Positions 23,663-57,913 of a DNA stretch of 64,000 nucleotides are shown here, in pieces. How positions within the stretch are numbered: position 1 is the first letter of the stretch; every line of letters begins with the position of its first letter. The position numbers and the translations under genes were made by a program. Source of the DNA: Blastocatellia bacterium. GTDB lineage: Bacteria; Acidobacteriota; Blastocatellia; UBA7656. The DNA lies in NCBI GenBank assembly GCA_049273855.1, contig JBASRN010000295.1:3931-67930 (forward strand). The letters run 5' to 3'. The notes under the pieces were generated by a model. The model was not told the origin of the DNA and did not search any database. It saw only the letters and a list, made by a program, of their open reading frames with translations.

Positions 23663-25081
<1,419 letters not shown>

Positions 25082-25138
25082 CCAGGTCGTCGAGGCTGTA
25101 CCCAGCAATACGAAATGGAACTTCGGGAGGGCTTGAAG

Positions 25139-26581
25139 ATGAAAAGATGGTTATCAGTTTCCATCGCGCTGGCGGTTGGGATCGTGGCGGCAAGCATGGT
25201 CTTGTCGGCTTCGATCGACGCAAGCTCTGGCAGCAGGAAGGTGGTGACGTTCAATAAGGACGTCGCGCCGATCTTCTATAAGAACTGCGCGGAGTGTCAT
25301 CGGGCTAACGACATTGCTCCGATGCCGCTGATGACCTACAAAGACTCCCGCCCTTGGGCGCGTTCGATCAAAGAGAAGATCCTGACTCGCCAGATGCCGC
25401 CCTGGAGTCCCGATCCGAAGTACGGCGAGTTTATAAACGATCATCGCCTCGCCCAGAAAGACATCGAAACGATAGCCGCGTGGGTGGACCAGGGCGCAAA
25501 GGAAGGCGACGCGAAGGACCTGGCCCCGACGCCGGAGTTCACTTCGACGGACGGCTGGCGGCTTGGCAAACCCGACGCGGTCTTTGACATCGGCAAGGAG
25601 TTCACCGTCAAAGCGGGAATGCCCGACACGATCGAGAACTTCATCGTTCCGACCAACTTCAAAGAAGACAAGTGGGTGACGGCGGCCGAGATCCTTCCCG
25701 GCAACAGAAAAGTCGTGCATCACGTGATCGCGTTTATCCAGACGCCGGAGATGATCGAAAAGTTCAAGAAGGGCGAAGGCCGTGCACGCGCGTTGATGCA
25801 GAGCGATGTCTTTTATCGCGACGGCTCGCTGTTGAAGGTGAAAGCCGATGCGCCGGTGATCAATGACGGATGCGGCGCGCCAAACGGAGGCTCGGCTTTC
25901 AAGCGCCCCAGCGCGAGCGAGGGCGGTGACGCGTTCGGGTTGTTCCTGGCAGGGTATGCTCCGGGCAAAGGCATTGATGTTTTCCCGGCAGGCACGGCCA
26001 AGAAGGTTCCCGTGGGCTCGATGCTGGTGTTCCAGATGCACTACTCCAGCTACAGCGGCAAGTTCGAGGGCGTGCAGGGCGATCGCACGAGGCTCGGGTT
26101 GCACTTTGCGAGCAAGCCGCCGGAGCGTGGCTTGAACACCGTTGGCATTCAGAATCATTACTTCAAGCTACCGGCTGGTGAAGGCAATCAAGAAGTGACG
26201 GCTTGCTACACCTTCGACGCGACGGTTCACCTCACAAGCTACATGCCGCACATGCATCTGCGCGGCAAGGATATGAAGTACGAGGTGGTCTATCCCGACG
26301 GCCGGCGGGAGACGCTGTTGTGGGTGCCGAAGTTCAGCTTCAACTGGCAGACGATGTACTACTTGAAGAAACCGGTAACGCTTCCCAGGGGCACAAAGCT
26401 GATCGTCACAGCGCACTTCGATAACTCGGACAAGAACAAGTACAACCCCGACGCCACAAAGGCGATTCGGTGGGGCGATCCGACCTACGAAGAGATGATG
26501 ATCGGATGGATGGAGTACTACGTCGATGGTCCGGTAAAGAGTGAGAGACCTGACGCAGCCGCTTCGGGGTCGCGAAGGTAG
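25139..26581 (+). CDS. array paralog 2: cytochrome c + PHM-like monooxygenase fusion
   Basis: Start at MKRWLSV after a GGGAGGG RBS. NCAECHRAND. HHVIAF. VHLTSYMPHMHLRGK. EEMMIGW. Confidence 0.8.
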   Translation: MKRWLSVSIALAVGIVAASMVLSASIDASSGSRKVVTFNKDVAPIFYKNCAECHRANDIAPMPLMTYKDSRPWARSIKEKILTRQMPPWSPDPKYGEFINDHRLAQKDIETIAAWVDQGAKEGDAKDLAPTPEFTSTDGWRLGKPDAVFDIGKEFTVKAGMPDTIENFIVPTNFKEDKWVTAAEILPGNRKVVHHVIAFIQTPEMIEKFKKGEGRARALMQSDVFYRDGSLLKVKADAPVINDGCGAPNGGSAFKRPSASEGGDAFGLFLAGYAPGKGIDVFPAGTAKKVPVGSMLVFQMHYSSYSGKFEGVQGDRTRLGLHFASKPPERGLNTVGIQNHYFKLPAGEGNQEVTACYTFDATVHLTSYMPHMHLRGKDMKYEVVYPDGRRETLLWVPKFSFNWQTMYYLKKPVTLPRGTKLIVTAHFDNSDKNKYNPDATKAIRWGDPTYEEMMIGWMEYYVDGPVKSERPDAAASGSRR

Positions 26582-26656
26582 TTCGAGATTTGCAGACGGA
26601 GAGGGGCTCGGTTCTAATATTCAAGAGATTGGTCCAAGTGTTGGACGGAGGGTCTA

Positions 26657-28105
26657 ATGAAGAAAGCAGTAGTGATCTCAGGGATAACGGCGGCGCTTGC
26701 GCTATTGTGTCTGGCTGTGTCGCCTCCGACCAGCGCGAGCGGCTCCGCCAGGAAGGAAGTCACGTTCACCAAAGACGTGGCCTCGATCCTGTTTAGCAAT
26801 TGCGCCGAGTGCCACAGGCCTAACGACATTGCGCCGATGTCGCTGCTGAGCTACAAGGAAGTGAGACCATGGGCTCGCTCGATCAAGGAGAAGGTCGCCA
26901 ATCGGGACATGCCGCCCTGGAGTCCTGATCCCGCGTACGGCGAGTTCACCAACGATCACCGGCTCGCCCAGAAATATATCGACACAGTAGTAGCATGGGT
27001 CGATCAGGGGGCGAAGGAAGGCAATCCGAAGGATCTTCCGAAGATGCCCGAGTTTGTCGGCGGTGGGTGGGCGATTGGCAAGCCTGACGTCGTGCTTCAA
27101 ATGGGGGAAGAGCACATCGTCAAACCGAACGACCCGGACCAATACATCAACTTCTTCATTCCGACAAACTTCAAAGAGGACATGTGGGTTCAGGCGGCCG
27201 AGGTTCATCCCGGCAACAGGCGCGTCGTGCATCACGTGATAGCGTTTATCCAGACTCCTCAGACCATGGCCAAGCGAGCCGAGGACGCAAAGGCCAAGGG
27301 AGAGAAAATCGGCAAGCGTGCCGCGGGCGGTTCGGGATTGTTTTATCTAGATGGCAACTTGAGACGGGTGAAGATGGATGCGCCTGTGGTGGACAACGCT
27401 TGCGAGCAAAGGGCACCGGGCGGACGGCAGCCTGGCGGGGGCGGCGAAGGCGAGAACGAAGGCATGTTGCTTGCGGGTTTCGCGCCCGGAACGGGGAACA
27501 CCGTCTATCCATCCGGCACCGCGAAGAGGGTTCCGGCGGGTGCGACTCTGATGTTCCAGATGCACTACTCGGCTTTCAGGGGTTCGCTCAAAGATTCGGT
27601 GACCGACCGAACCAGCATTGGGCTGATCTTCGCGAAGCAAGCTCCGGAAAAGATGGTTATCACAAGCGCCGCGGCTAACCTTCTATTCAAGATCCCGGCC
27701 GGCGCCGACAATCATGAAGTCCTGGCCTGTCAGACCGTCCCGCGCGACATCCAGGTGATCAACTACATGCCTCATATGCATCTACGCGGGAAGGACATGA
27801 AGTACGAAGCGATCTATCCCGATGGCAAGCGCGAGACGCTGTTGTGGGTGCCCAAGTTCAGCTTCAACTGGCAGTCGGTCTACTGGTTGAAGCGGCCGGT
27901 GAATATTCCAAAGGGCACGAAGTTGATCGTGACAGCTCACTTCGACAACTCGGCGAAGAACAAGTACAACCCGGATTCCAGTAAAGATGTTCGATGGGGC
28001 GATCCGACTTACGATGAGATGATGATCGGCTGGATGGACATCACCATCGACAACCCGATGAAGGCTCCGAAGCCTGACGCAGCGCGGGCGGCCTCGGGCA
28101 AGTAG
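26657..28105 (+). CDS. array paralog 3: cytochrome c + PHM-like monooxygenase fusion
   Basis: NCAECHRPND. HHVIAF. MPHMHLRGK. DEMMIGW. Confidence 0.8.
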   Translation: MKKAVVISGITAALALLCLAVSPPTSASGSARKEVTFTKDVASILFSNCAECHRPNDIAPMSLLSYKEVRPWARSIKEKVANRDMPPWSPDPAYGEFTNDHRLAQKYIDTVVAWVDQGAKEGNPKDLPKMPEFVGGGWAIGKPDVVLQMGEEHIVKPNDPDQYINFFIPTNFKEDMWVQAAEVHPGNRRVVHHVIAFIQTPQTMAKRAEDAKAKGEKIGKRAAGGSGLFYLDGNLRRVKMDAPVVDNACEQRAPGGRQPGGGGEGENEGMLLAGFAPGTGNTVYPSGTAKRVPAGATLMFQMHYSAFRGSLKDSVTDRTSIGLIFAKQAPEKMVITSAAANLLFKIPAGADNHEVLACQTVPRDIQVINYMPHMHLRGKDMKYEAIYPDGKRETLLWVPKFSFNWQSVYWLKRPVNIPKGTKLIVTAHFDNSAKNKYNPDSSKDVRWGDPTYDEMMIGWMDITIDNPMKAPKPDAARAASGK

Positions 28106-28116
28106 TCTACTTGTAC

Positions 28117-28195
28117 GGGCGTCCCTCTGTGGGCGCCCCTCCTTACAAACACGAGATATCGTCGTTGCGAGTAGGGGCGCTCTTACAGGACGCCC
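28117..28195. repeat. pair of GC-rich palindromic units (GGGCGn(10-11)CGCCC + CTACAA) in mutually inverted orientation
   Basis: GGGCGTCC 28117-28124 pairs with GGACGCCC 28188-28195. GGGCGCCCC 28131-28139 pairs with GGGGCGC 28174-28180. Each unit also folds on itself. Confidence 0.5.
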
Positions 28196-28399
28196 CCTAC
28201 AAGCCGAAGCAAGAGCCAGGTGTAAATAGTCGGCTCTATTTCCGTCGCCCCTGAGAGCGCAAATACGACCTTTGAGACCACACACATATAAGGAGGTAGA
28301 CCCCTGAACACAGCGCCCACCAAGCAAAGCGAGTACGATGCAATAGCAAAGACAGTCCAGCACTATATCGATGGCGGCAGGTCTGGCCGAGGCGCAGAC

Positions 28400-28678
28400 A
28401 TGAAGCCGGCCTTCCACCAGGATGCGACGATCTTCGGCTATAGTGGAGCCGATCTGTTCGCTGGCCCCATCCAGCAGCTCTTTGACTGGAATGATCAGAA
28501 CGGTCCGGCGACGGGACTCCAAGCCCGGATTGCCAGCATCGACATCATCGAAACGATTGCCACGGTGCGGCTGGAACTGGACGACTGGACCGGACATCGG
28601 TTTACCGATCTGTTCACGCTGCTCAAGGTCGACGGGGAATGGAAGATCATGAACAAGGTCTTCCATCAGCACGCTTGA
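28400..28678 (+). CDS. NTF2-like (SnoaL/lumazine-binding-like) small protein, probably with a non-ATG start upstream near 28304
   Basis: The conserved-looking N-terminal segment (AIAKTVQHYIDGGRSGRGADM...) lies in-frame upstream of the first ATG. An AGGAGG RBS at 28291-28296 is followed by CTG at 28304. Confidence 0.5.
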   Translation: MKPAFHQDATIFGYSGADLFAGPIQQLFDWNDQNGPATGLQARIASIDIIETIATVRLELDDWTGHRFTDLFTLLKVDGEWKIMNKVFHQHA

Positions 28679-28720
28679 GAGAACAACAGGCCACGCGGTG
28701 GACAACGTGACGCAGCCTGA

Positions 28721-28761
28721 GCGCCGGCCGCGAACTTTCTTCGCGGCCGGCGCGTTGTGTT
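28721..28761 (+). terminator. perfect 14-bp stem / 5-nt loop hairpin followed by GTTGTGTT (intrinsic-terminator-like)
   Basis: GCGCCGGCCGCGAA-CTTTC-TTCGCGGCCGGCGC directly after the NTF2-like gene stop and upstream of paralog 4. Confidence 0.55.
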
Positions 28762-28814
28762 AGAATGCAAGCCGGCGGCGAACGCCGCCTCAAACCACCC
28801 CGAGGTTTTAGAGT

Positions 28815-30464
28815 ATGAAGAAAGCAGTTTCACTCCTCTTAGCCGCCGTCCCGCTCGCAATCATCTGCTTCGTAGCCTCAACCGCCGCTCAGGCTAGCGA
28901 CGCGAAGAAGAGCGCAAGGCCAGTCACGTTCAGCAAGGACGTCGCGCCGATTCTCTTCAAGAACTGCGCCGATTGCCATCGTCCGGGTGAGCTCGCGCCC
29001 ATGTCGCTGCTGAGCTTCAAGGATGCGCGGCCGTGGGCGCGCTCGATTCGCGAGAAGGTCGTCAGCCGGGTGATGCCGCCGTGGCACGCCGATGAGCACT
29101 ACGGAAAGTTCGGCAACGACAAGCGGCTTTCGCAGCAGGAGATCGACACGATAGCCGCGTGGGTCGATCAAGGCGCCAAAGAAGGCAATCCGAAGGAATT
29201 GCCGCCCGTGCCCGTTTACCTAAATGGCTGGAAGATCGGCAAGCCCGACGTTGTGTTGACGATGCAAGAGGAGTACACGCTTGCGGCTGCAGGCTCTGAC
29301 GAGTACATCAACTTCACAATACCCACCAGCTTCAAAGAAGACGTCTGGGTGCAGGCTGCCGAGGTCCATCCGGGCAACAAGCGCGTCGTGCATCACGTGA
29401 TTGCGTTCATCCAGACCCCACAGATGCTCGCCTCGTACAAGGCCTCTGGCGGAAAACCCTCCGCTCAATCGATCTTCTACCAGGATGGAACGCTGATTCG
29501 CACAAAACTCGAAGCGCCGGCTCACGATGACGGCTGCAAAGCGCCGAACGGCGGACTCTCTCGCGGGAGCGGTCAGGAGGGCCTTGGCTTTCCGCTCTGT
29601 TTCTACACCCCTGGCAAGGACGTGGACGTTTGGCCCACCGGCGTGGCCAAGTCGGTCCCCGCCGGCTCGAACATAGTTATTCAGGTTCACTACTCGAAGA
29701 CCACCGGCAAGACCGAAAAGGACCGCACGAGCGTAGGGCTTATCTTCGCCAAAGAGCCGCCAGCCAAAGTGCTGTCGGCGTTTGGCGTGATCAATCACTA
29801 CTTTAAGATTCCACCAGGCGCGGAAAATCACGAGGTCAAGGGCTGCTACACCTTCTCGCGCGACGTCGAGATTCACGGGTTCCTCCCGCATATGCATTTG
29901 CGCGGCAAGGATATGAAGTACGACGTGGTCTATCCCGACGGGCGGCAGGAAACGCTGCTTTCCGTCCCCAACTACAACTTCAACTGGCAGACGTTGTACA
30001 AGGCGGATAAGCCGATCGAGCTTCCGAAGGGCTCGAAGATAATTGTCACCGCGCACTTCGACAACTCGGAAAGGAACAAGTACAACCCGGACCCGACGAA
30101 GACCGTGCGATTCGGCGACCCGACTTATGACGAGATGATGGTCGGGTACTTCGACTATGTCACCAAGGTGCCGAAACGGAACGCGATCAAGCTCGACGCG
30201 AAGACGCTCGACAGCTACGTTGGAGACTACACCGTCGTTGGCGCCGGTGTGCCCTTCAAGATCACGCGAACCGGCGAGCAGTTGATGTTTACAACCCCCG
30301 GCCAGCCGATGGTAGAGGCGTTTCCGGAATCCGAGACGAAGTTCTACTTCAAGATTTTCGACGGGCAGGTGACATTTAAGAAGAACGAGGCGGGAAACGT
30401 GACCGCACTGGTCTTTGAGGTTAACGGCCGCTCGATTCTGGCAACGAAGAAGACGGCGAACTAA
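28815..30464 (+). CDS. array paralog 4: cytochrome c + PHM-like monooxygenase fusion with an extra C-terminal domain of about 100 aa
   Basis: NCADCHRPGE. HHVIAF. HGFLPHMHLRGK. DEMMVGY. C-terminal extension (KTLDSYVGDYTVVGAG...FEVNGRSILATKK) resembling the DUF3471-type beta domain. Confidence 0.8.
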   Translation: MKKAVSLLLAAVPLAIICFVASTAAQASDAKKSARPVTFSKDVAPILFKNCADCHRPGELAPMSLLSFKDARPWARSIREKVVSRVMPPWHADEHYGKFGNDKRLSQQEIDTIAAWVDQGAKEGNPKELPPVPVYLNGWKIGKPDVVLTMQEEYTLAAAGSDEYINFTIPTSFKEDVWVQAAEVHPGNKRVVHHVIAFIQTPQMLASYKASGGKPSAQSIFYQDGTLIRTKLEAPAHDDGCKAPNGGLSRGSGQEGLGFPLCFYTPGKDVDVWPTGVAKSVPAGSNIVIQVHYSKTTGKTEKDRTSVGLIFAKEPPAKVLSAFGVINHYFKIPPGAENHEVKGCYTFSRDVEIHGFLPHMHLRGKDMKYDVVYPDGRQETLLSVPNYNFNWQTLYKADKPIELPKGSKIIVTAHFDNSERNKYNPDPTKTVRFGDPTYDEMMVGYFDYVTKVPKRNAIKLDAKTLDSYVGDYTVVGAGVPFKITRTGEQLMFTTPGQPMVEAFPESETKFYFKIFDGQVTFKKNEAGNVTALVFEVNGRSILATKKTAN

Positions 30465-30522
30465 CTGAGTCTCGCACAGGAAGGGTCGTTAGTTTCAGAA
30501 CTCGATACTGGAGGAGAATACG

Positions 30523-31755
<1,233 letters not shown>

Positions 31756-31799
31756 CAGCGGTCTGATTCTCTTCGGTTAGAACCTCGTTTAGGATTGAA

Positions 31800-31832
31800 G
31801 GGCCGATTCAACCTGTCCGGTTGAATCGGCCC
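31800..31832. other. perfect 14-bp stem / 5-nt loop hairpin immediately 5' of paralog 6
   Basis: GGGCCGATTCAACC-TGTCC-GGTTGAATCGGCCC. No U-tract follows. It ends 1 nt before the ATG at 31834. Confidence 0.5.
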
Positions 31833-31833
31833 G

Positions 31834-33180
31834 ATGAGTATGAAGAGGAAGAGCGACACGGCGACGGGGCGACGGAGCGACGCGGCGATCGGACGATCGC
31901 CCTCTGCGTCTCTGCGTTTGGGCGTCTCGGCGTTGATTCTGACCACCTTGTTCTTTGTTGACTCGTGGTTCGGTCGGGCTTTCGCGCACGAGCCGATCAC
32001 CACGAAAGTCAGATTCAACAAAGAAGTGGTGCGCGTCTTGCAGCGGAACTGTTTGGGTTGTCATCACACTGGTGGCTTGGCGATGTCGCTTGCGGCCTAC
32101 GACGAGGCTCGGCCGTGGGCAAAGGCAATCAAGGAAGAGCTGCTTGAGAAGCGTATGCCGCCGTGGCACGCGGTGCGGGGCTACGGCGAGTTTCGCAACG
32201 CTCCTACGATCACGCAACGCGAGATCGATTTGATCGTGAACTGGGTCGAAGGCGGCGCCCCAAAGGGCGACGACAAGGACTTACCGGATGGTCCGCTCTA
32301 TTCCGGTGAGGGGCAGTTAGGCGCCCCTGACCTGATCCTAAAGCCTCAGTCAGAGGCTCAAGTAGCAGCGGACGCCGACGAGCATCGCGGCTTATCGCTG
32401 GCGACTGATCTGAAAGAAGACCGCTGGCTAACGGCGATTGACCTTCGCCCGGGCAACGGCTCGGTAGTTCATTGTGCCACGTTCAATATTGAAGCCGCCG
32501 CAGTGGGCGATCCCGCGATGCCCGCGCGAATGAGTTCCGGCGTCGAGCGTTCGATGTCTCCTCCCGGGGCCGCACGAACACCAGCCTCCAACGCCATCGT
32601 TGCCACGTGGGCGCCGGGACAGCGAACAGTGGCGTTGCCTGACGGCATCGCGCAGCTTCTACCCGCAGGCTCGCGCATCGGTGTTACGATTCATTATCGC
32701 GGCGCCGGCGAAGCGGTGCAAGACCTGAGCGAAGTCAGTTTGTATTTCGCCGAGACCGCGCCTCGCAAACAGATTAGGCAGATCGCCATCACGGACCCCG
32801 ACGCGATCATTCCCGCAGCCACGGAACTTCAGCGCTTCAAGAAATCAGTCACGATTCAGGATGACGCAGAAGGAATCGCGATTCGTCCGCGAGTGCATCC
32901 GGTTGTGGCTTCGGTTCAGGCTACGGCGTTCCGGCCGGATGGCACGCAAGAGATTTTGATATGGACGCGCGGCTACCAGTTTGACTGGCAGCAGACTTAC
33001 TACTTCAAGCAGCCAATCGCGCTGCCAAAGGGAACGCGTGTTGAAGTGATAGCCTACTTCGACAACTCCGACAACAACCCAAAGAACCCGAACGACCCGG
33101 CCAAGCCGATGCGCTGGTCCGATCTAACGCAGGAACCGCTCTTTGCTCTTCTCGTAACAAGAACGCGTAACGCCGACTAG
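31834..33180 (+). CDS. array paralog 6 (most divergent): cytochrome c + PHM-like monooxygenase fusion
   Basis: NCLGCHHTGG heme motif. MPPWHAVRGYGEF. Conserved C-terminal YFDNSDNNPKNP block and FDWQ motif. Cu-site residues less conserved than in paralogs 1-5. Confidence 0.65.
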   Translation: MSMKRKSDTATGRRSDAAIGRSPSASLRLGVSALILTTLFFVDSWFGRAFAHEPITTKVRFNKEVVRVLQRNCLGCHHTGGLAMSLAAYDEARPWAKAIKEELLEKRMPPWHAVRGYGEFRNAPTITQREIDLIVNWVEGGAPKGDDKDLPDGPLYSGEGQLGAPDLILKPQSEAQVAADADEHRGLSLATDLKEDRWLTAIDLRPGNGSVVHCATFNIEAAAVGDPAMPARMSSGVERSMSPPGAARTPASNAIVATWAPGQRTVALPDGIAQLLPAGSRIGVTIHYRGAGEAVQDLSEVSLYFAETAPRKQIRQIAITDPDAIIPAATELQRFKKSVTIQDDAEGIAIRPRVHPVVASVQATAFRPDGTQEILIWTRGYQFDWQQTYYFKQPIALPKGTRVEVIAYFDNSDNNPKNPNDPAKPMRWSDLTQEPLFALLVTRTRNAD

Positions 33181-33387
33181 TCAGGCGGTAGACGCAAGCT
33201 TCGGTTACCACCACCACGCAGACCGGACGCGACCAATCGCCTTGATTGGTGGATTGATTCCAAAAACAAGCTGTGCAATACTCGGGCAACCGAGCCTCGG
33301 GTTGGTGAGTACCAAGGTAGCTCAGGCACGAAGAAGGCGAGCCGTTCAGTCCCGTCAGCACAAGATCTCTTACAGGAGGCTGAGTGT

Positions 33388-34518
33388 ATGTATGACTGCT
33401 TTATTTCTTATTCCAGTAAAGATGGGCTAGATCTTGCGAAATCGGTTGCCGCGATTCTCGAGAAAACATATTTGATGGACGTCTTTCTCGCCGAAGAGAA
33501 TCAGGGTACTGCCGGCATAGATTCGAAGGTAAAGGAGGCAATAACACAGTCCGGGAGATTTTTGGTTTTGTACACTCCCGGCGCTGTAACATCAGAATGG
33601 GTCAAGGGAGAGACGGCCATAGCATTGGATATGCAAAAGAACATGATTGTGTGCAGAAGCCGTGACGTGTCGAGGGAGAGTCTGCCTGTTCGGCTTGTCG
33701 AAAAAGAGCATATTGTATTCACCATCGAGAGTGAACTGCTACGGCTCCTTGCAGAATTAGGAGAGCGAGAATGGGGCATCCCTCTGATTATCCCGGCTGG
33801 CGGCACGGCGGGGGGATTGTATCCGTTGAACATAGGTATGCCGAAGATCCTTCTACCCGTTGAGAAGAAACCGCTCCTGCACCACATCGTCGATAAGTTG
33901 GACGCTACTGTGTTTTCAAAGGCCATAATCCTGACCAATCATTTCTTTGAGATGATCGAATATCACGTCAGCTCGCTCAAGACTAACGTTCCGTTGAAGT
34001 GCATAAGGACATCGGCCCCGACGCTTCCGTCGGCTCTAAAAGAGATATCGCCGGCCACTACTTTCATGGTTCACTACTCGGACATCATCATCGACGGGGA
34101 TTTTGACTGGCGTGATTTCCTAGCCCACCACAAGCACCACAGAAATCTACACGGCGTCATTGGCACTTTAATGGCGAGCGACAAGTATAAGCTGCCCGTT
34201 GGCCGAATAAAGACCGGACCGCAACAGTTGATTACAGATTTCGCGGAGAAACCACAACGTATCGAGGCCGTTGGCTATGCTATTAATATGGCCGTGTCGA
34301 TTTTTGAGCCAGAGTTTCTCGTTGGAGTGGAGGAGACGGATAGAAGCCTCTACGGAGATACCCTCAAGAGGGCGATGGAACAAAATAAGAAGTTTTGCAT
34401 CTACAGTCACGACCGGTGGCGTCACATTCAGACCCTGGGTGATTGGTATGAAGTCCAGTCGGATTATTTCAGAACCGAAGAAGGCCTCTACGCCTTGGTT
34501 CCGAGTTCACGGGATTGA
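33388..34518 (+). CDS. TIR domain - sugar-nucleotidyltransferase (NTP_transferase/RmlA-GlmU-like) fusion protein
   Basis: N-terminus CFISYSSKD plus SEWVKGE box, typical of TIR. Middle: PAGGTAGGLYPLNIGMPKILLPVEKKPLLHHIV matches the G-rich pyrophosphorylase signature. AGGAGG RBS. GC about 48-50% against about 62% flanks. Confidence 0.75.
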   Translation: MYDCFISYSSKDGLDLAKSVAAILEKTYLMDVFLAEENQGTAGIDSKVKEAITQSGRFLVLYTPGAVTSEWVKGETAIALDMQKNMIVCRSRDVSRESLPVRLVEKEHIVFTIESELLRLLAELGEREWGIPLIIPAGGTAGGLYPLNIGMPKILLPVEKKPLLHHIVDKLDATVFSKAIILTNHFFEMIEYHVSSLKTNVPLKCIRTSAPTLPSALKEISPATTFMVHYSDIIIDGDFDWRDFLAHHKHHRNLHGVIGTLMASDKYKLPVGRIKTGPQQLITDFAEKPQRIEAVGYAINMAVSIFEPEFLVGVEETDRSLYGDTLKRAMEQNKKFCIYSHDRWRHIQTLGDWYEVQSDYFRTEEGLYALVPSSRD

Positions 34519-34540: not shown

Positions 34541-34678
34541 GTCTCGAACGACGCGGCGAAACAAGTGCGCTGGTCCGAACTTGCCCGCGATCCCATATTC
34601 ACGTGCTTACTGCGAGCATCCGCGCGCTTGGTGAGCGGACGAGCCGACGCTGATACAGAATTCTCTTTGGGAGTTTGA
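34541..34678 (+). pseudogene. 3' remnant of a seventh cytochrome-c/PHM-like paralog (C-terminal 40-45 codons only)
   Basis: Translation ...NDAAKQVRWSELARDPIFTCLLRASARL... aligns with the paralog 6 C-terminus NDPAKPMRWSDLTQEPLFALLVTRTRN. DNA identity about 70%. No upstream body is present. Confidence 0.45.
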
Positions 34679-37164: not shown

Positions 37165-37494
37165 GTGGCGACACGGATCACCGAGAGCGATGTGCTCGTA
37201 AGGATCAAGCGCGCGGTCCTCGCTGGTCGCTATGCATTCAGTGAAAAGGCGCGTTTGGAGATGGAAGCTGACCGTATCACGGAGCTTGATGTCGCGGAGG
37301 CGATTCTTAACGCAGTGGCGATCTTCAAGAAAATCCGGTCAACTAATCCACTGCGCAAGCGGCCCCGAGAATACCTTTACATCATACAGAGCACAAACCT
37401 TGAAGGCTTGCTCATCTATACAAAAGGCAAGCTCGTCAAGGAAGGAGGACATGATAGCTACTACTTTCTGGTATCATCCAAAAGAGCGATATGA
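37165..37494 (+). CDS. DUF4258 domain protein (putative toxin of a TA-like pair)
   Basis: 109 aa matching the DUF4258 size range. Overlaps the next gene by ATGA. Confidence 0.55.
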   Translation: MATRITESDVLVRIKRAVLAGRYAFSEKARLEMEADRITELDVAEAILNAVAIFKKIRSTNPLRKRPREYLYIIQSTNLEGLLIYTKGKLVKEGGHDSYYFLVSSKRAI

Positions 37495-37760
37495 CGATGA
37501 CCAAACTCAACATCAAAACCTGTCCGTCTTGTGACGGAAAGAGAATTAAGAGAGTTTGCGGGAATTGGACCGGTACCTTCAAGGGGGAAACATACACTGT
37601 TCCTAACTTGGAGTACTACGAGTGTCCAGACTGCGGAGAAAGAATCTACGACCGAGAAGCTATGAGAGAGATTGAGTCGCATTCACCCGCATTCGAGCGC
37701 CCGAAGCGGAAACGCAAGCCTGCTCGATCTACGCGATCCGCGACATCCCTCCGGCCTTAA
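37491..37760 (+). CDS. YgiT/MqsA-type zinc-ribbon protein (putative antitoxin partner)
   Basis: CPSCDG...CPDCGE double CxxC zinc ribbon. 89 aa. Translationally coupled to the DUF4258 gene. Confidence 0.55.
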   Translation: MTMTKLNIKTCPSCDGKRIKRVCGNWTGTFKGETYTVPNLEYYECPDCGERIYDREAMREIESHSPAFERPKRKRKPARSTRSATSLRP

Positions 37761-40802: not shown

Positions 40803-41360
40803 CTAATCAAATATCTCAGAAACGCGGCATCGAAACGCCGGCACTACATCGTCCAGGTCCAGTTCGCCGTTCCCGGTCAGGCTGAGTATTTCATTCTCTG
40901 GGCGATGGACCTTCACCGATTTCGTAGCCGGATCAAGCGTGGGCACGACCCTGACTCCAGCGCTCAGCCACATTGAGACCTTTTCTGCGACTTCGCGGAC
41001 GGTGTCTGACGGGGAGAGCGTTTCGACGACAAGGTCGGGAGCGAGTTCGAGATAGCGCCTCGTGTCGGCGCCAGCAGGGACTCGGCCCTTTGCGACAAAC
41101 GAAACGTCGGGAGCCAGCACTGTTGCCCGACCGTCTGTCGTGCGGGCGATGATGAAGCCGGTCTCTGCGGCGAGCACGTCCCCGAGGTCGTTGCTCCACA
41201 CGTGTACTGACAAAAACGTGTGGAATCTGCCTGTTGCCTTGCTGTGTTCGTAGCCTGCAGGAGACATCGGGCGCAATTCTCCTTCGATGAGTTCATAACG
41301 AGAGCCGCTGGGCATTCGCAATAGCTCGTCCTCGGTTATGAATCGCGCAATCGTGCTCAT
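40803..41360 (-). CDS. Uma2 family (DUF820) putative endonuclease
   Basis: YELIEGEL motif and conserved D/E...D...E...K pattern. Length 185 aa. Confidence 0.65.
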   Translation of the reverse strand: MSTIARFITEDELLRMPSGSRYELIEGELRPMSPAGYEHSKATGRFHTFLSVHVWSNDLGDVLAAETGFIIARTTDGRATVLAPDVSFVAKGRVPAGADTRRYLELAPDLVVETLSPSDTVREVAEKVSMWLSAGVRVVPTLDPATKSVKVHRPENEILSLTGNGELDLDDVVPAFRCRVSEIFD

Positions 41361-54820: not shown

Positions 54821-57800
54821 ATGGCCGCTAAGAACAGATTCATAATCAAGCGAAACGATTTGACCGTTGATGACGTCGTTGTCGAGAGCGAAGGCCTGAC
54901 GATTGGGCGGCTGATTAGCAATGATCTTTCGCTCAATCACAGGACCGTGTCTCGCACACACGCCGGCATAAAAGAATTCAACGGCGAGTATTGGATATTC
55001 AACCTTTCGTCTTCGAATGGAACGGTGTTGAATGGCGAGCTAGTGGATAGGACTCCGCTGGCTGACGGCGATGTTCTGCAGATCGGCCGTTACATTCTCA
55101 GGCTTAAATACGTCCAGGACGCTCTGGCAGTTACGGTGGAGATGGAGCCGGAGGCTCAGTTGCAGGACGCGCACGCCGCCGCCGTTCCTACTCCTGCCCA
55201 GGCCCCGGCCCCGGACGAAGCCGGCCAGGCCACCCAGGTCTTTCGCCGCGTCGCAGCTCAACCTCCCAAGGCTCCAACCAGGCAGCTACGTGGCACAGGT
55301 CTCCTGACCGGCGTGCTGGCCCCTCAGGCCGAGCAGGCCCTCATGGTCTTCTGGGAGAAGCGAAAGCGAGAAGCCGGCAAGATCGCCGAGAAGTCGCTGC
55401 TGCATCCCCGAGGCGACCGGCGAGTCGGCAAGTCCCAGTTCAATTGGCGGCCTACGCGAGACCTGCAAAAGCTATGGCGCAAATCGTACTTTGCGTGGGG
55501 CGTTGTAATCGTGGCGGTCGTATCCACCGTCGCATTGTTTGCTCACAGCGATGCTTACTCTCCGGGCGTCATTTCGTCGCCTCACACCGCCACTCAAGTA
55601 AGCGAGCGTGGTATCGCCTTGCGGGCGAACGGCGGCTCATGCACTGAGTGTCACGGCGCAACCACCAGCATTCAAGCCAACTGCACCAGCTGCCATCAGA
55701 CGCAGGCGTTCGAACCTTCCGTTTCCAAAGTCCATACGGACGGCGGGCTCACCTGCGTGAGCTGTCACGGTGAGCACATGGGCGCGAGCTTTCGTCCCGG
55801 TCTTGTTGGCTCGGCTATGTGCGTCAGCTGTCACAACGACACATACAAGTTCAAAGGCCAGCCGATTGGCTCTCCGCATGGGGGCTCGGTGGGGTACCCG
55901 GTAGTCAATCGTCAGTGGCAGTGGACCGGTCTTTCCGAAGCCTCGTGGTCCAAGAAGCGACTTCCAGACACCGCCTCGAAGTACACGCCGCTCGAGCAAT
56001 TCCACGTCCTCCATGTCTCCGGCAGGGAGGAGGGCCGTACTAACTGCACGGATTGTCACTCGGCTGGTCTTCATACCGAAGAAGGACTGCATCAGTCGCC
56101 ACGCGCCACTTGCGCGGCGTGTCATAGCACAACGTTCGACGCGGGAGGAGCGATCTTCGGGCCGAATTGCACTTCCTGCCACGTCCAGCACGGTGGCGAG
56201 AAGGACCTAGTCGCTGCCCTGCGGGTCTCATCGGCGATTGAGGATCAATCGGGCTCTCAAGCGAGTGCTGCGAACATCCCGCAGATTGGAAGTGGCGGCG
56301 CCCAGGTGATTCGTCACGACGACACCGGGGCAAGGTGGAGCTTGAAGTCGGACTTGAACGTCGGCGGATTGCCCTGGTACGGCTGGGCGGGAATGCTGGC
56401 GGTCGTGCCAGTGCTTGGCGTCGCGTTGCTGGCCGCCAACAGCATCCGTCGAAGGAACTTCCTGGCCGGCCCCGCTTCCGAGGCTACCACTCAGGACGAG
56501 GTTCAAAAAGCGGGCACAAAGTTTCTCGATCTCGCAAAACTCAAAGCCGATGGACCGGCTTATCCACACCCTGTCATCGATCCGGTCCTGTGCATAGGGT
56601 GCCACGCATGCGTTGAAGCGTGCCCTCACGATGTGCTCGCGATAGTCAACGGAGTATCCACACCCGTCGCCCTGGACCAGTGCATGGAGGACACTGGGTG
56701 CACTGTTGAATGCCCGACGAGTCCAAAGGCATGCATCATCATCAACGGCACCAAGAAGATCCCCCCTCGCAAAGTGCCCAGCAGAAACCAGCGCTTGATG
56801 ACAAACGTGCCGGGCGTCTACATGGTCGGCGATGTGTCGGGTGTCCCGCTGATCAAGAACGCGATAAATGAAGGCGCGCAGGTTATCGACTATGTGCTCG
56901 AAGACATTCGGAGCCAGGGTGAGGCGAAGGCAGAATACGATGTGGCAATAGTTGGCGTTGGTCCGGCGGGACTGTCGGCTACGGCCATTGCGAAGCAAAG
57001 AGGCTTGAGGTACATAGCCGTCGAACAGGACAAGGTCGTCAGCACAATTCAAAACTATCCCGCAGGCAAGTATGTCTTCTTCAAGCCTGATACGGTGGAC
57101 GCGAAGGGCGGGGTGCCGCTCGAGGGCGTCGGCAATCAAAGAGAAGTCATCCTGAAATCGTGGATGAACTCGATGATGCAGAATGGGATCGAAGTCAATG
57201 AAGACGAGAGCTGCAAGGACATCAAGAAAGAGGACGGCGTCTTCAAGGTCACGACCGAGGCCGGCAAGCTCAAGGAGAAATCGACATACACAGCTCGCGC
57301 GGTGATTCTGGCGATCGGTAATCGGGGCACTCCAATGAAACTCAGAGTACCCGGTGAAGAGCTTACGATGCGAGTCCAACCCGGGCCGATGGTGGCAAGG
57401 CATTGTCCGCAGTGCGGCCAGCCGCGAAGCGGTCAACAGGTCTTCTGTGTGCGCTGCGGCCAGAAGCTTCCGGTCAGAACACCTCCGCCTTGCGACGACT
57501 CCAAGGTCAAGTACAAGTTGTCGGATCCGGACGACTACGTAAACCAGAAGTGCATCATTGTCGGGGCCGGCAACTCGTCGATCGAGTCCGCCGTTGCTCT
57601 GACCGGGTTCAAGCGCGTGGGCGATCAAGTCACTTTCACTCGTAACAACGAAGTGGCTCTGGTGGTTAGAAGCGATTTCAAGGGCGACTTGAAGCTGGGC
57701 AACAAGATGGACGTGTACGACTGTATGGACGCCGGAAGAATAAAGGTCTTCTTCCGCACCGAGATCAAAGAGATTACCGAGAAGGAAGTTGTGTTGATGG

Positions 57801-57913
57801 ACACGCGCTCGAAAGAGGAGAAGGCCCGGCTGGCAAATGACTACGTATTTGCGCTCATCGGAGGCGAGAAGCCGACAAAGTTTCTTGAAGGCATAGGGAT
57901 CAAGATTGGGTGA
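54821..57913 (+). CDS. FHA domain - TM - heptaheme cytochrome c - TM - 4Fe-4S ferredoxin - FAD/NAD(P) oxidoreductase (with inserted Zn ribbon) fusion protein
   Basis: FHA signature (VSRTHAGI...NGTVLNGE...GDVLQIG). Seven CxxCH motifs. Two TM helices. CIGCHACVEACPHD ferredoxin motif. Two GxGxxG dinucleotide folds. CPQCG...CVRCG ribbon. Confidence 0.8.
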   Translation: MAAKNRFIIKRNDLTVDDVVVESEGLTIGRLISNDLSLNHRTVSRTHAGIKEFNGEYWIFNLSSSNGTVLNGELVDRTPLADGDVLQIGRYILRLKYVQDALAVTVEMEPEAQLQDAHAAAVPTPAQAPAPDEAGQATQVFRRVAAQPPKAPTRQLRGTGLLTGVLAPQAEQALMVFWEKRKREAGKIAEKSLLHPRGDRRVGKSQFNWRPTRDLQKLWRKSYFAWGVVIVAVVSTVALFAHSDAYSPGVISSPHTATQVSERGIALRANGGSCTECHGATTSIQANCTSCHQTQAFEPSVSKVHTDGGLTCVSCHGEHMGASFRPGLVGSAMCVSCHNDTYKFKGQPIGSPHGGSVGYPVVNRQWQWTGLSEASWSKKRLPDTASKYTPLEQFHVLHVSGREEGRTNCTDCHSAGLHTEEGLHQSPRATCAACHSTTFDAGGAIFGPNCTSCHVQHGGEKDLVAALRVSSAIEDQSGSQASAANIPQIGSGGAQVIRHDDTGARWSLKSDLNVGGLPWYGWAGMLAVVPVLGVALLAANSIRRRNFLAGPASEATTQDEVQKAGTKFLDLAKLKADGPAYPHPVIDPVLCIGCHACVEACPHDVLAIVNGVSTPVALDQCMEDTGCTVECPTSPKACIIINGTKKIPPRKVPSRNQRLMTNVPGVYMVGDVSGVPLIKNAINEGAQVIDYVLEDIRSQGEAKAEYDVAIVGVGPAGLSATAIAKQRGLRYIAVEQDKVVSTIQNYPAGKYVFFKPDTVDAKGGVPLEGVGNQREVILKSWMNSMMQNGIEVNEDESCKDIKKEDGVFKVTTEAGKLKEKSTYTARAVILAIGNRGTPMKLRVPGEELTMRVQPGPMVARHCPQCGQPRSGQQVFCVRCGQKLPVRTPPPCDDSKVKYKLSDPDDYVNQKCIIVGAGNSSIESAVALTGFKRVGDQVTFTRNNEVALVVRSDFKGDLKLGNKMDVYDCMDAGRIKVFFRTEIKEITEKEVVLMDTRSKEEKARLANDYVFALIGGEKPTKFLEGIGIKIG

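What the first reader, a model, noticed from the sequence alone, without database searches (positions are those of the whole stretch)
33388..34518. Low-GC single-gene insertion encoding a TIR - nucleotidyltransferase fusion (candidate novel defence/signalling protein)
The ORF begins with a TIR fold signature (CFISYSSKD, then the SEWVKGE box that holds the catalytic Glu in TIR NADases). It continues into a domain with the G-rich sugar-nucleotide pyrophosphorylase motif (AGGTAGGLYPL...PKILLPVEKKPLLHHIV, RmlA/GlmU/GDP-mannose pyrophosphorylase-like). The canonical Arg of GxGTRL is replaced by Gly-Gly, so the domain may bind rather than make a nucleotide or nucleotide-sugar. Bacterial TIR domains are NAD+-cleaving effectors or signal generators in anti-phage systems (Thoeris, TIR-STING, and similar). 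A TIR-NTP_transferase fusion is not one I recognise as described. GC drops to about 48-50% against about 62% flanks. The gene sits alone between the paralog array and a paralog remnant, so it is most likely horizontally acquired.
Basis: partly seen in the sequence, partly recalled or inferred. Interest (0 to 1): 0.85.

Follow-up and report, generated by a model that had tools for sequence, protein, structure and literature searches.

The report
Standalone TIR fused to nucleotidyltransferase-like domain
This is a real, rare, AT-rich single gene that joins an apparently active NAD-cleaving TIR domain to a remodelled sugar-nucleotide-binding domain; it is most likely an undescribed one-protein immune or stress switch, but no function has been tested.

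Summary
ORF 33388-34518 (+, 376 aa) encodes TIR_2 (41.7 bits, cutoff 28) plus NTP_transferase (56.2 bits, cutoff 21.2), confirmed by AlphaFold/Foldseek. It is the lowest-GC 1.1 kb of the window (0.493 vs 0.574; flanks are 56-60%, not 62%). A short paralog remnant follows it.

It belongs to a rare family (about 25 close and 15 distant metagenomic members; 7 of 185,579 species genomes, mostly Acidobacteriota). The TIR catalytic Glu is invariant down to 25% identity. The C-terminal domain lacks the Arg of GxGTR and has His for the Asp of WxDxG, but keeps the other pocket residues. The same remodelled domain occurs with other N-termini or none.

No partner gene is conserved. Three of about eleven independent sites directly abut Septu, type I Thoeris or a defence-type SIR2-TPR. 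One lineage carries it inside a MurNAc-recycling operon. The gene is syntenic in diverged genomes, so acquisition was old, not recent.

Best reading (confidence 0.45): a one-protein switch in which the degenerate domain senses a nucleotide or nucleotide-sugar and gates TIR NADase activity. I found no description in PADLOC, NCBIfam or the literature searched. Verdict: new variant of a known kind, function untested.

The parts
33374..33379 (+). Shine-Dalgarno AGGAGG, 8 nt upstream of the start codon
   Evidence: Read directly from the sequence.
33388..34518 (+). TIR-NT fusion gene, 376 aa, stop codon included
   Evidence: ORF list; an identical protein is in NCBI as 'MAG: sugar phosphate nucleotidyltransferase [Blastocatellia bacterium]'.
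33388..33777 (+). TIR domain (aa 1-130), flavodoxin-like beta-alpha fold
   Evidence: Pfam TIR_2 on aa 5-93, E = 2e-10. AF2 TIR-only model pLDDT 87.9. Foldseek top hits are AbTir, SPARTA TIR-APAZ and SARM1, TM 0.72-0.80.
33592..33612 (+). S69-E-W71-V-K-G-E75 box; the E75 codon (33610-33612) is the catalytic-position Glu
   Evidence: Translation. S69 and E75 are invariant in 22 close and 17 distant members; W71 is nearly so.
33787..34467 (+). Remodelled sugar-nucleotidyltransferase-fold domain (aa 134-360)
   Evidence: Pfam NTP_transferase E = 4.9e-15. Foldseek hits tlr0611 (8x7s), GMPPB, VTC1, RmlA, GalU, eIF2B gamma/epsilon and MurU at E of 1e-11 to 1e-14.
33796..33846 (+). Gly-rich loop AGGTAGGLYPLNIGMPK: G143 stands in place of the GxGTR Arg; K153 of the PK motif is retained
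   Evidence: Translation. HMM alignment to 8x7s and GMPPB. Arg is present in only 4 of 77 clade members and K153 in 76 of 77. The loop has low pLDDT (aa 142-147).
34417..34434 (+). W344-R-H346-I-Q348-T in place of the canonical W-x-D-x-G-(T/K) metal-site motif
   Evidence: Translation; alignment to 8x7s 'EWIDIGKV'; His in 72 of 73 clade members.
34545..34612 (+). Remnant of the 3' end of a further cytochrome-c/Cu2_monoox_C paralog, in a different frame from the TIR-NT gene
   Evidence: tblastn: 22 aa, 50% identity, E = 1.8e-4 against the whole window. 37-nt direct repeat with 33089-33125 at 81% identity. Translation SNDAAKQVRWSELARDPIFTCLLR.
33089..33125 (+). Matching copy of the repeat, inside the 3' end of the intact last paralog (31834-33180)
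   Evidence: the repeat finder family D1.

Best explanation
The gene encodes a self-contained two-module switch. The N-terminal TIR domain is a catalytically competent NAD+-cleaving enzyme. The C-terminal domain is a sugar-nucleotidyltransferase fold that has lost canonical pyrophosphorylase chemistry but keeps a conserved pocket. It acts as the sensor or regulator: binding of a nucleotide or nucleotide-sugar-like ligand, or of a phage factor, changes its conformation or oligomeric state and brings TIR domains together. The composite TIR active site then forms and NAD+ is consumed, either to arrest the cell (abortive-infection-type defence) or, less likely, to emit an ADPR-derived signal. What is shown: the architecture, the folds, the residue conservation, the absence of a conserved partner gene, the family's rarity and patchy distribution, and partial adjacency to defence systems. 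What is inferred: NADase activity, ligand gating, oligomerisation and the defence role.
For: Both domains exceed Pfam thresholds and their folds are confirmed. The TIR catalytic-position Glu and the S-x-W box are invariant or nearly so across the family down to 25% identity. The TIR is structurally closest to oligomerisation-activated NAD+-consuming TIRs: AbTir, SPARTA, SARM1 and TIR-1. A Bacillus cereus TIR protein ranks only 47th. The best sequence match to a solved TIR is TIR-STING. In the NT-like domain the GxGTR Arg is lost (4 of 77 retain it) and the WxDxG Asp is His (72 of 73). Meanwhile K153, D232, G272, E-K-P and N300 are kept in 68-77 of 77 members, which indicates a pocket under selection with altered chemistry. 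The same remodelled domain is found with an alpha/beta-hydrolase-like N-terminus, a wHTH-like N-terminus, a coiled-coil N-terminus, or alone. This is the pattern expected of a sensor module joined to interchangeable output modules. Non-catalytic NT-fold paralogues that bind a nucleotide-sugar and regulate a partner are known (GMPPA: PMC11228364), and GMPPA and eIF2B gamma/epsilon are among the hits. No partner ORF recurs across about 11 independent sites. Three sites abut bona fide defence systems: Septu PtuAB (PtuA E = 7e-145), type I Thoeris plus a PIN toxin-antitoxin pair, and a SIR2-TPR matching LmuA/ThsA/Dsr1. The gene is AT-rich relative to its flanks in 15 of 16 loci. It is rare and patchy: 7 of 185,579 species genomes.
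Against: There is no experimental evidence of any kind. Most neighbourhoods (about 7 of 11) contain no recognisable defence gene. In one lineage of three genomes the gene sits inside a MurNAc-recycling operon. No ligand-producing partner such as a CD-NTase or Cas10 is adjacent, so the trigger is unknown. The strong conservation of K153, D232, EKP and His346 would equally fit a still-active enzyme with altered chemistry. Long-term synteny at two sites is less typical of fast-turnover defence genes. The N-terminal swaps are typed only weakly, with the alpha/beta-hydrolase and Trans_reg_C matches below Pfam thresholds. I could not obtain their genomic contexts.
Confidence: 0.45

Rival explanations
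1. It is a ThsB-like signal generator. The NT-like domain senses infection and the TIR makes a cADPR-type or ADPR-conjugate signal for an effector encoded elsewhere in the genome (an orphan or trans-acting Thoeris TIR).
For: The best PADLOC hits are ThsB models (E = 5e-6) and Pfam ThsB_TIR just passes, at 23.1 bits against 21.2. In L003 the gene lies 99 bp from a ThsB + ThsA (SIR2-STALD) pair, and Thoeris loci often carry several TIR genes. In L016 a SIR2-TPR gene lies nearby.
Against: No ThsA, SIR2, SLOG or Macro effector is in the 64-kb window. Only 1 of about 11 sites has a ThsA, and there the gene is convergent to the Thoeris operon, which already has its own ThsB with no BLAST similarity to this TIR. 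No effector recurs across sites. The nearest structural neighbours are effector-type TIRs.
Confidence: 0.15
2. It is a bifunctional enzyme. The TIR produces ADPR or a base-exchange or cyclic product from NAD+, and the NT-like domain, using His346 chemistry in place of the Arg/Asp pair, nucleotidylates or otherwise converts it into a new compound such as an ADPR-NMP-type conjugate.
For: The pocket residues K153, D232, E-K-P, N300 and His346 are as conserved as a catalytic site would be. ADP-ribose is itself an NDP-sugar. pTM 0.81 for the full-length model suggests a defined inter-domain arrangement. From background knowledge, TIR products that are conjugates are known: His-ADPR in type II Thoeris (10.1101/2024.01.03.573942) and ADPr-ATP in plants.
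Against: Two residues regarded as essential for catalysis in this superfamily are missing. The same domain occurs fused to non-enzymatic-looking N-termini and wHTH-like domains, which fits sensing better. No receptor or effector for such a product is linked to the gene.
Confidence: 0.12
3. It has a non-defence housekeeping or regulatory role in nucleotide-sugar or cell-wall metabolism, for example a MurU-like protein of MurNAc recycling whose TIR domain serves as a regulatory or interaction module.
For: In three genomes the gene lies between the SSF transporter and the MurQ-like SIS gene of a NamZ/NagZ/MurQ/kinase cluster. In L017 it is followed 56 bp later by an NAD-dependent epimerase/dehydratase. 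MurU is among the weak NCBIfam hits and the fold hits. Databases name it a sugar phosphate nucleotidyltransferase.
Against: Every NCBIfam equivalog score is far below its cutoff, for example MurU at 29.7 against 250. The catalytic Arg and Asp are lost. In the MurNAc cluster the gene is antisense to the operon and 11-24 GC points below it. The other 8-9 sites have no sugar-metabolism link. The family is far too rare for a housekeeping role. The invariant TIR Glu argues for enzymatic TIR activity.
Confidence: 0.12
4. It is a decaying or selfish toxin-like accessory gene with no current function.
For: Low GC, rarity, a 5'-truncated TIR-less copy in L029 and a C-terminally aberrant copy, P0015.
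Against: The ORF is intact with a strong SD. About 50 invariant or near-invariant residues across 22 members at 45-63% identity, plus retention at syntenic sites in diverged genomes, indicate purifying selection.
Confidence: 0.05

Closest known systems
Single-protein TIR effectors gated by a fused ligand sensor: TIR-STING, TIR-SAVED (Cap), CARF-TIR Cat1
   Same: One polypeptide joins a TIR with the catalytic Glu to a nucleotide-binding domain. Activation in those systems is by ligand-induced oligomerisation that assembles TIR active sites and depletes NAD+ (10.1101/2022.05.04.490601; PMC12162218). The best PDB sequence hit for this TIR is TIR-STING.
   Different: The sensor here is a sugar-nucleotidyltransferase (GT-A-like Rossmann) fold, not STING, SAVED or CARF. 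The TIR is N-terminal. No adjacent CD-NTase or Cas10 makes a ligand, so the trigger would have to be a cellular or phage-derived metabolite or protein.
Thoeris ThsB TIR proteins
   Same: A bacterial TIR with a conserved Glu. ThsB profiles are the best PADLOC hits. One homologue lies next to a type I Thoeris pair.
   Different: There is no conserved effector partner and the gene is standalone at most sites. The systematic Thoeris survey deliberately excluded standalone TIR proteins. The C-terminal NT-like domain is not reported among ThsB architectures in the text I read.
SPARTA TIR-APAZ, SARM1 and AbTir TIR NADases
   Same: They are the closest structural neighbours of the TIR domain (TM 0.72-0.80). 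All are NAD+-consuming TIRs activated by oligomerisation.
   Different: The partner domains are completely different (APAZ/pAgo; ARM-SAM; coiled coil). Sequence identity is only about 20%.
Sugar-1-phosphate nucleotidylyltransferases (RmlA, GalU, GlmU N-domain, GMPPB, MurU; PF00483)
   Same: Same fold, with retained PK-motif Lys, first Asp, E-K-P motif and Asn.
   Different: The GxGTR Arg is lost, the WxDxG Asp is replaced by His, and the (Q/E)xxPxGT base-contact loop is shortened. All equivalog scores are far below their cutoffs. It is fused to a TIR.
Non-catalytic NT-fold regulators: GMPPA, GalF, eIF2B gamma/epsilon
   Same: They use the pyrophosphorylase fold as a binding or regulatory module. 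GMPPA binds GDP-mannose and regulates GMPPB (PMC11228364). They appear among the sequence and fold hits.
   Different: Those act within sugar-nucleotide or translation control complexes. None is fused to an NADase, and the substitution pattern (His346/Gln348) is specific to this clade.

Membership tests
TIR domain superfamily (PF13676 TIR_2) | Profile match above the curated threshold | tested here: met
   41.7 bits against a cutoff of 28, aa 5-93.
TIR domain superfamily (PF13676 TIR_2) | Flavodoxin-like TIR fold | tested here: met
   AF2 pLDDT 87.9; Foldseek hits AbTir, SPARTA and SARM1 at TM 0.72-0.80 and E about 1e-7.
Enzymatic (NAD+-cleaving) TIRs | Catalytic Glu in the alpha-C region (the S-x-W...E box) | tested here: met
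   E75 is invariant in 22 close and 17 distant sequences, including a 35%-identical Wallbacteria relative.
Enzymatic (NAD+-cleaving) TIRs | Measured NADase or cyclase activity | not testable with these tools
   Requires biochemistry.
Sugar-1-phosphate nucleotidylyltransferases (PF00483) | Profile match and fold | tested here: met
   56.2 bits against 21.2; Foldseek E = 2.7e-14 to tlr0611 and GMPPB.
Sugar-1-phosphate nucleotidylyltransferases (PF00483) | G-x-G-T-R signature with the catalytic Arg | tested here: not met
   G143 aligns to the Arg. Arg is present in 4 of 77 clade members.
Sugar-1-phosphate nucleotidylyltransferases (PF00483) | Second metal-site Asp in W-x-D-x-G | tested here: not met
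   H346 and Q348 align to D and G. His is present in 72 of 73.
Sugar-1-phosphate nucleotidylyltransferases (PF00483) | PK-motif Lys, first Asp, E-K-P motif and Asn of the sugar/phosphate pocket | tested here: met
   K153, D232, E287-K288-P289 and N300 are conserved.
Specific enzymes (RmlA, GalU, GlmU, MurU, GMP-transferase NCBIfam equivalogs) | Score above the equivalog cutoff | tested here: not met
   The best hit is Arch_glmU at 41.4 against 292; MurU scores 29.7 against 250; rmlA_long scores 27 against 320.
Thoeris (ThsB + effector) | TIR gene in an operon with a signal-responsive effector (ThsA or others) | tested here: not met
   There is no SIR2, SLOG or Macro gene in the window. An effector is adjacent at only 1 of about 11 sites, and there the gene is convergent to it. 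No partner recurs across sites.
Thoeris (ThsB + effector) | ThsB-type TIR profile | tested here: inconclusive
   PF08937 scores 23.1 against 21.2; PADLOC ThsB E = 5e-6 on a partial match.
Defence-island genes | Enriched adjacency to known defence systems | tested here: inconclusive
   Three of about 11 independent sites directly abut Septu, Thoeris I or a defence-type SIR2-TPR. The others do not. No background rate was computed.
Mobile-element cargo | Presence on phages or plasmids, or flanking integrase or terminal repeats | tested here: not met
   No relatives in the phage, plasmid or IMG/VR collections. The only flanking repeat is the paralog remnant.

The most novel reading that the evidence does not exclude
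The remodelled nucleotidyltransferase-fold domain (no GxGTR Arg; W-x-H-[IV]-Q) defines a previously unrecognised family of small-molecule sensor modules. They are coupled to interchangeable outputs: a TIR NADase, an alpha/beta-hydrolase, a coiled-coil 'LPAGVPYAG' module, or a wHTH. The TIR-fused form would be a one-gene immune system triggered by a nucleotide-sugar-type metabolite, possibly a cell-wall precursor such as a UDP-MurNAc derivative that accumulates when phage or antibiotics perturb the envelope. That would be a new class of trigger for TIR immunity.
Probability: 0.25. Interest if true: 0.8.

Novelty: new variant of a known kind. Interest (0 to 1): 0.58.

Why it matters
TIR enzymes sit at the centre of immunity in bacteria, plants and animals, and each new sensor partner has revealed a new way of detecting infection (cyclic nucleotides for STING, SAVED and CARF; nucleic acids for pAgo). 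A TIR gated by a degenerate sugar-nucleotide-binding fold would add metabolite or nucleotide-sugar sensing to that list. It would also show a classical biosynthetic fold recruited as an immune receptor, in parallel with GMPPA in eukaryotic metabolism. The family comes from poorly studied soil Acidobacteria. It falls in a class, standalone TIR proteins, that the most recent systematic TIR survey deliberately set aside, so current pipelines are likely to keep missing it. The protein is small (376 aa) and self-contained, which makes it easy to test.

Tried and rejected
- AFDB Foldseek search for other two-domain proteins: the library was not available.
- Genomic context of the non-TIR relatives: these proteins cannot be used for contig look-ups. 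They are absent from plasmids, phages and IMG/VR, and the cluster look-ups gave no taxonomy.
- Profile search with the 'LPAGVPYAG' plus coiled-coil N-terminal module, to see whether it joins other domains: no hit at E <= 0.01. The profile is probably too short for a 5.8-billion-sequence search.
- The A2 alignment was too divergent for a pattern scan of viral contigs. A1 found nothing there.
- Promoter and terminator consensus scans around the gene gave nothing above shuffled expectation.
- 'Recent horizontal insertion' rejected: the gene is syntenic in three genomes at each of two sites.
- 'Canonical RmlA/GalU/MurU enzyme' rejected: scores are far below equivalog cutoffs and two catalytic residues are lost.
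- 'Second ThsB of a Thoeris locus' rejected as the general explanation: only one site has a ThsA.
- 'Mobile-element target-site duplication' rejected for the flanking repeat: it is an 81%-identical coding remnant of a paralog, not a short exact duplication.
Full report
1. THE OBSERVATION

The window contains an ORF at exactly 33388-34518 on the + strand. A consensus Shine-Dalgarno (AGGAGG, 33374-33379) lies 8 nt before the ATG, which is the first possible start after an upstream stop.

Pfam supports both domains above their gathering thresholds:
- NTP_transferase PF00483: aa 134-360, 56.2 bits against a cutoff of 21.2.
- TIR_2 PF13676: aa 5-93, 41.7 bits against 28.
- ThsB_TIR: just passes, 23.1 against 21.2.
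- The older TIR model PF01582: does not pass.

PADLOC recognises only the TIR part, with the best hit a ThsB model at E = 5e-6. NCBIfam gives only far-sub-threshold nucleotidyltransferase hits: Arch_glmU 41 bits against 292, MurU 30 against 250.

An AlphaFold2 model built on 22 family sequences is confident (pLDDT 82.8, pTM 0.81). Its C-terminal half superposes on sugar-nucleotide pyrophosphorylases and their non-catalytic relatives: tlr0611/8x7s, GMPPB, VTC1, RmlA, GalU, eIF2B gamma/epsilon and MurU.

A TIR-only model (pLDDT 87.9) is closest to AbTir, the SPARTA TIR-APAZ, SARM1 and C. elegans TIR-1, with TM 0.72-0.80.

The compositional anomaly is real. At GC 0.493 the gene is the lowest-GC 1.1-kb stretch of the 64-kb window. 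The window mean is 0.574, z = -3.4 against 37 other genes, and only 0.08% of equal-sized windows are as low. GC3 is 0.58 against 0.69.

The 'paralog remnant' is also real. Starting 29 nt after the stop codon and in another frame, 22 codons (34547-34612) are 50% identical to the C-terminus of the upstream cytochrome-c/Cu2_monoox_C paralogs. The E-value is 1.8e-4 against the whole window, and the hit ranks directly after the six true paralogs. A 37-nt direct repeat at 81% identity links 33089-33125 and 34545-34581. The gene therefore sits where most of a seventh paralog copy used to be.

2. WHAT IT IS

The protein is not an orphan. An identical sequence is in NCBI, from a Blastocatellia MAG, named 'sugar phosphate nucleotidyltransferase'. 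Twenty-four more proteins share the full architecture at 45-73% identity. An exhaustive profile search of 1.84 billion representatives found about 17 full-length clusters at the 50% identity level, reaching down to 25% identity.

The family is rare:
- 7 of 185,579 species-representative genomes carry it: six Acidobacteriota and one Candidatus Wallbacteria.
- A named protein hit adds one Planctomycetota.
- The metagenome scan found 7 contigs.
- The more distant cluster representatives are singletons seen on 1-17 contigs.
- There are no relatives in the phage, plasmid or IMG/VR collections.

Residue conservation is informative. In the TIR domain, F5, S69 and E75 are invariant across both the close and the distant alignments. 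W71 is invariant among the close members and nearly so among the distant ones. E75 occupies the catalytic-Glu position of the S-x-W...E box, and it is retained even in the 35%-identical Wallbacteria protein.

HMM alignments to solved enzymes map the C-terminal domain as follows:
- G143 lies at the Arg of G-x-G-T-R.
- H346 and Q348 lie at the Asp and Gly of W-x-D-x-G.
- K153 (PK motif), D232, E287-K288-P289 and N300 match their canonical counterparts.
- The (Q/E)xxPxGT base-contact loop is shortened.

Counts over 77 clade members:

| Position | Residue | Members |
|---|---|---|
| G143 (canonical Arg) | Arg present | 4 of 77 |
| H346 (canonical Asp) | His | 72 of 73 alignable |
| K153 | Lys | 76 of 77 |
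| D232 | Asp | 76 of 77 |
| G272 | Gly | 77 of 77 |
| P289 | Pro | 76 of 77 |
| N300 | Asn | 72 of 77 |

One divergent TIR-fused member (P0031, 'AGGAGRRLLPIT') still has the Arg, so its loss is derived within the clade. This is not a decayed domain. It is a strongly constrained pocket whose chemistry differs from canonical pyrophosphorylases.

The same remodelled domain occurs without a TIR. About 16 clusters carry a roughly 90-aa N-terminus with a conserved 'LPAGVPYAGxxY' motif followed by a coiled coil. One carries an alpha/beta-hydrolase-like domain with a GHSMGG nucleophile elbow. Two carry a Trans_reg_C-like winged helix, one has a TM helix, and many have no extension at all. The Pfam typing of these N-termini is weak and below threshold. 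I could not obtain their genomic contexts.

3. GENOMIC CONTEXT

I grouped the loci into about 11 independent sites, merging loci that share flanking synteny.

- Site A comprises the window, L016 (Blastocatellia SMAG_U1603) and L028. The gene directly follows the last cytochrome-c paralog and precedes a CxxCxxCC gene. TIR-NT identity is 60-63%, against 62-74% for the paralog orthologues and 80-83% for CxxCxxCC and PPDK.
- In L016 only, a 1087-aa SIR2-TPR protein follows. It matches the PADLOC models LmuA (4.5e-25), ThsA and Dsr1.
- The window instead has a DUF1326 gene, a low-GC MqsA-like toxin-antitoxin-looking pair (37165-37760) and, further on, a Uma2 gene matching PADLOC candidate PDC-S03.
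- Site B comprises L002, L012 and L021. The gene lies antisense between the SSF transporter and the MurQ-like SIS gene of a NamZ/GH3/SSF/MurQ/BadF-kinase/LysR MurNAc-recycling cluster. TIR-NT identity is 60%, against 65-72% for the flanking genes.
- The other sites are:
  - L003: 99 bp from a ThsB plus SIR2-STALD (type I Thoeris) pair, followed by a PIN toxin-antitoxin pair.
  - L018 (Wallbacteria): 31 bp from a complete Septu system, PtuA 7e-145 and PtuB 2e-76.
  - L009: among hypothetical genes, with an N6/N4 methyltransferase plus ResIII helicase and a kinase-AAA16-TPR protein within 7 kb.
  - L017: followed by an NAD-dependent epimerase and a DNase II.
  - L026: convergent with a NudC-type NUDIX gene.
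  - L008, L010 and L027: no telling neighbours.
  - L029: a 5'-truncated, TIR-less copy.

An all-against-all BLAST of neighbouring ORFs found no partner that recurs across independent sites. The window has no ThsA or SIR2 homologue.

In 15 of 16 loci the gene is 2-24 GC points below its flanks. Low GC is therefore a family trait. The persistent AT-richness is unexplained: it could reflect selection, or recurrent allelic replacement at the same site.

4. HOW IT MOST LIKELY WORKS

Shown:
- A standalone gene.
- A TIR with an invariant catalytic-position Glu and the fold of oligomerisation-activated NADases.
- A fused nucleotidyltransferase-fold domain with a conserved but non-canonical pocket.
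- Reuse of that domain with other N-terminal modules.
- Partial adjacency to defence systems.

Inferred: the C-terminal domain is a sensor or regulator that binds a nucleotide or nucleotide-sugar-like ligand, or a phage factor. Through a conformational or oligomeric change it licenses TIR-TIR assembly and NAD+ cleavage, giving growth arrest of the abortive-infection type.

Precedents for each step exist. Ligand-induced TIR assembly is known in TIR-SAVED, TIR-STING and Cat1 (10.1101/2022.05.04.490601; PMC12162218). Non-catalytic pyrophosphorylase-fold regulators that bind an NDP-sugar are known: GMPPA (PMC11228364), which appears among the hits together with eIF2B gamma/epsilon.

I give this model 0.45. 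The rivals are:
- A ThsB-like signal generator acting on a trans-encoded effector: 0.15.
- A two-step enzyme making a new ADPR-derived compound using His346 chemistry: 0.12.
- A non-defence role in nucleotide-sugar or MurNAc metabolism: 0.12.
- A decaying selfish gene: 0.05.

The MurNAc-operon site in three genomes has two possible readings. It may be a lineage-specific accident of insertion. Or it may hint at the ligand, a UDP-MurNAc-type precursor. The data cannot decide between them.

5. COMPARISON WITH WHAT IS KNOWN, AND NOVELTY

As a member of a family:
- It is a bona fide TIR-superfamily protein.
- It is a bona fide PF00483-fold protein.
- It fails two defining catalytic features of sugar-1-phosphate nucleotidylyltransferases and all equivalog cutoffs, so it should not be filed as RmlA, GalU, GlmU or MurU, nor as an active 'sugar phosphate nucleotidyltransferase' as databases name it.
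- It fails the operon criterion for Thoeris.

As a way of working, it most resembles the single-protein sensor-TIR effectors.

I found no description of the fusion in any of these sources:
- PADLOC v2 and NCBIfam have no full-length model for it.
- Four literature searches with different phrasings found nothing relevant.
- The Aravind-lab NAD+/ADPr survey does not mention it.
- The 2025 systematic survey of bacterial TIR systems does not mention a nucleotidyltransferase partner and states that standalone TIR proteins were removed from the analysis.

Absence from these sources is not proof of absence from all literature, since subscription journals are not covered.

My verdict is 'new variant of a known kind': a TIR effector with a new type of fused sensor domain. 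Function is untested, so interest is moderate to high at 0.58. The finding is real, cheap to test and in a blind spot of current pipelines. Against that, the family is rare, the defence role is circumstantial, and the trigger is unknown.

Noticed in passing
window 23663-33180: Six tandem paralogs (410-549 aa) combine an N-terminal cytochrome-c-like region with a Cu2_monoox_C-like C-terminal domain; one also has DUF3471. The array is conserved in two other Blastocatellia genomes (L016, L028), and a seventh copy survives only as a 3' remnant at 34545-34612.
   Followed up: partly
window 37165-37760: A low-GC (0.51) pair of ORFs overlapping by 4 nt: 109 aa with no Pfam hit, then 89 aa matching MqsA_antitoxin at 26.3 bits (cutoff 30). 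It is probably a toxin-antitoxin pair, lying in the same variable region between the paralog array and PPDK.
   Followed up: partly
window 40803-41360 (-): A Uma2-family putative endonuclease that matches PADLOC candidate defence family PDC-S03 (E = 1.5e-13).
   Followed up: no
window 57600-58400: The second-lowest GC stretch of the window (about 0.51), inside ORF 57910-59475 (GC 0.519). Not examined.
   Followed up: no
proteins P0037, P0045, P0048-P0053, P0058, P0061, P0062, P0065, P0068, P0075, P0079, P0080: The same remodelled NT-like domain is fused to an unannotated N-terminal module of about 90 aa, with a conserved 'LPAGVPYAGxxY' motif plus a coiled coil. Other relatives carry an alpha/beta-hydrolase-like N-terminus (P0047), a wHTH-like N-terminus (P0078, P0089) or a TM-helix N-terminus (P0090). 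The module has no Pfam match, and a profile search with it found nothing.
   Followed up: partly
L002 8001-9143, L012 1608-2741, L021 699-1793: In three Acidobacteriota genomes the TIR-NT gene lies antisense inside a MurNAc-recycling cluster (NamZ, GH3, SSF | TIR-NT | MurQ-like SIS, BadF-type kinase, LysR), 11-24 GC points below its flanks. It is unclear whether this is chance or a clue to the ligand.
   Followed up: partly
L018 7238-9522 (-): A complete Septu system (PtuA E = 7e-145, PtuB E = 2e-76) lies directly beside the 35%-identical Wallbacteria TIR-NT homologue. That homologue is too divergent for Pfam to detect either domain at E <= 0.001.
   Followed up: yes
L029 5100-6400: A 5'-truncated, TIR-less copy of the gene (P0025, 217 aa). 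The upstream reading frame contains stop codons and repetitive sequence.
   Followed up: partly
one search hits P0036, P0039, P0042, P0043 and others: Outside the family, the nearest relatives of this TIR domain are very large proteins (700-2300 aa) carrying 3-7 tandem TIR repeats. Their origin and architecture were not examined.
   Followed up: no
L026 9140-10108 (-): A NudC-type NUDIX (NADH pyrophosphatase-like) gene lies convergent 18 bp after a TIR-NT homologue. This is a possible NAD/ADPR-metabolism link, seen only once.
   Followed up: no
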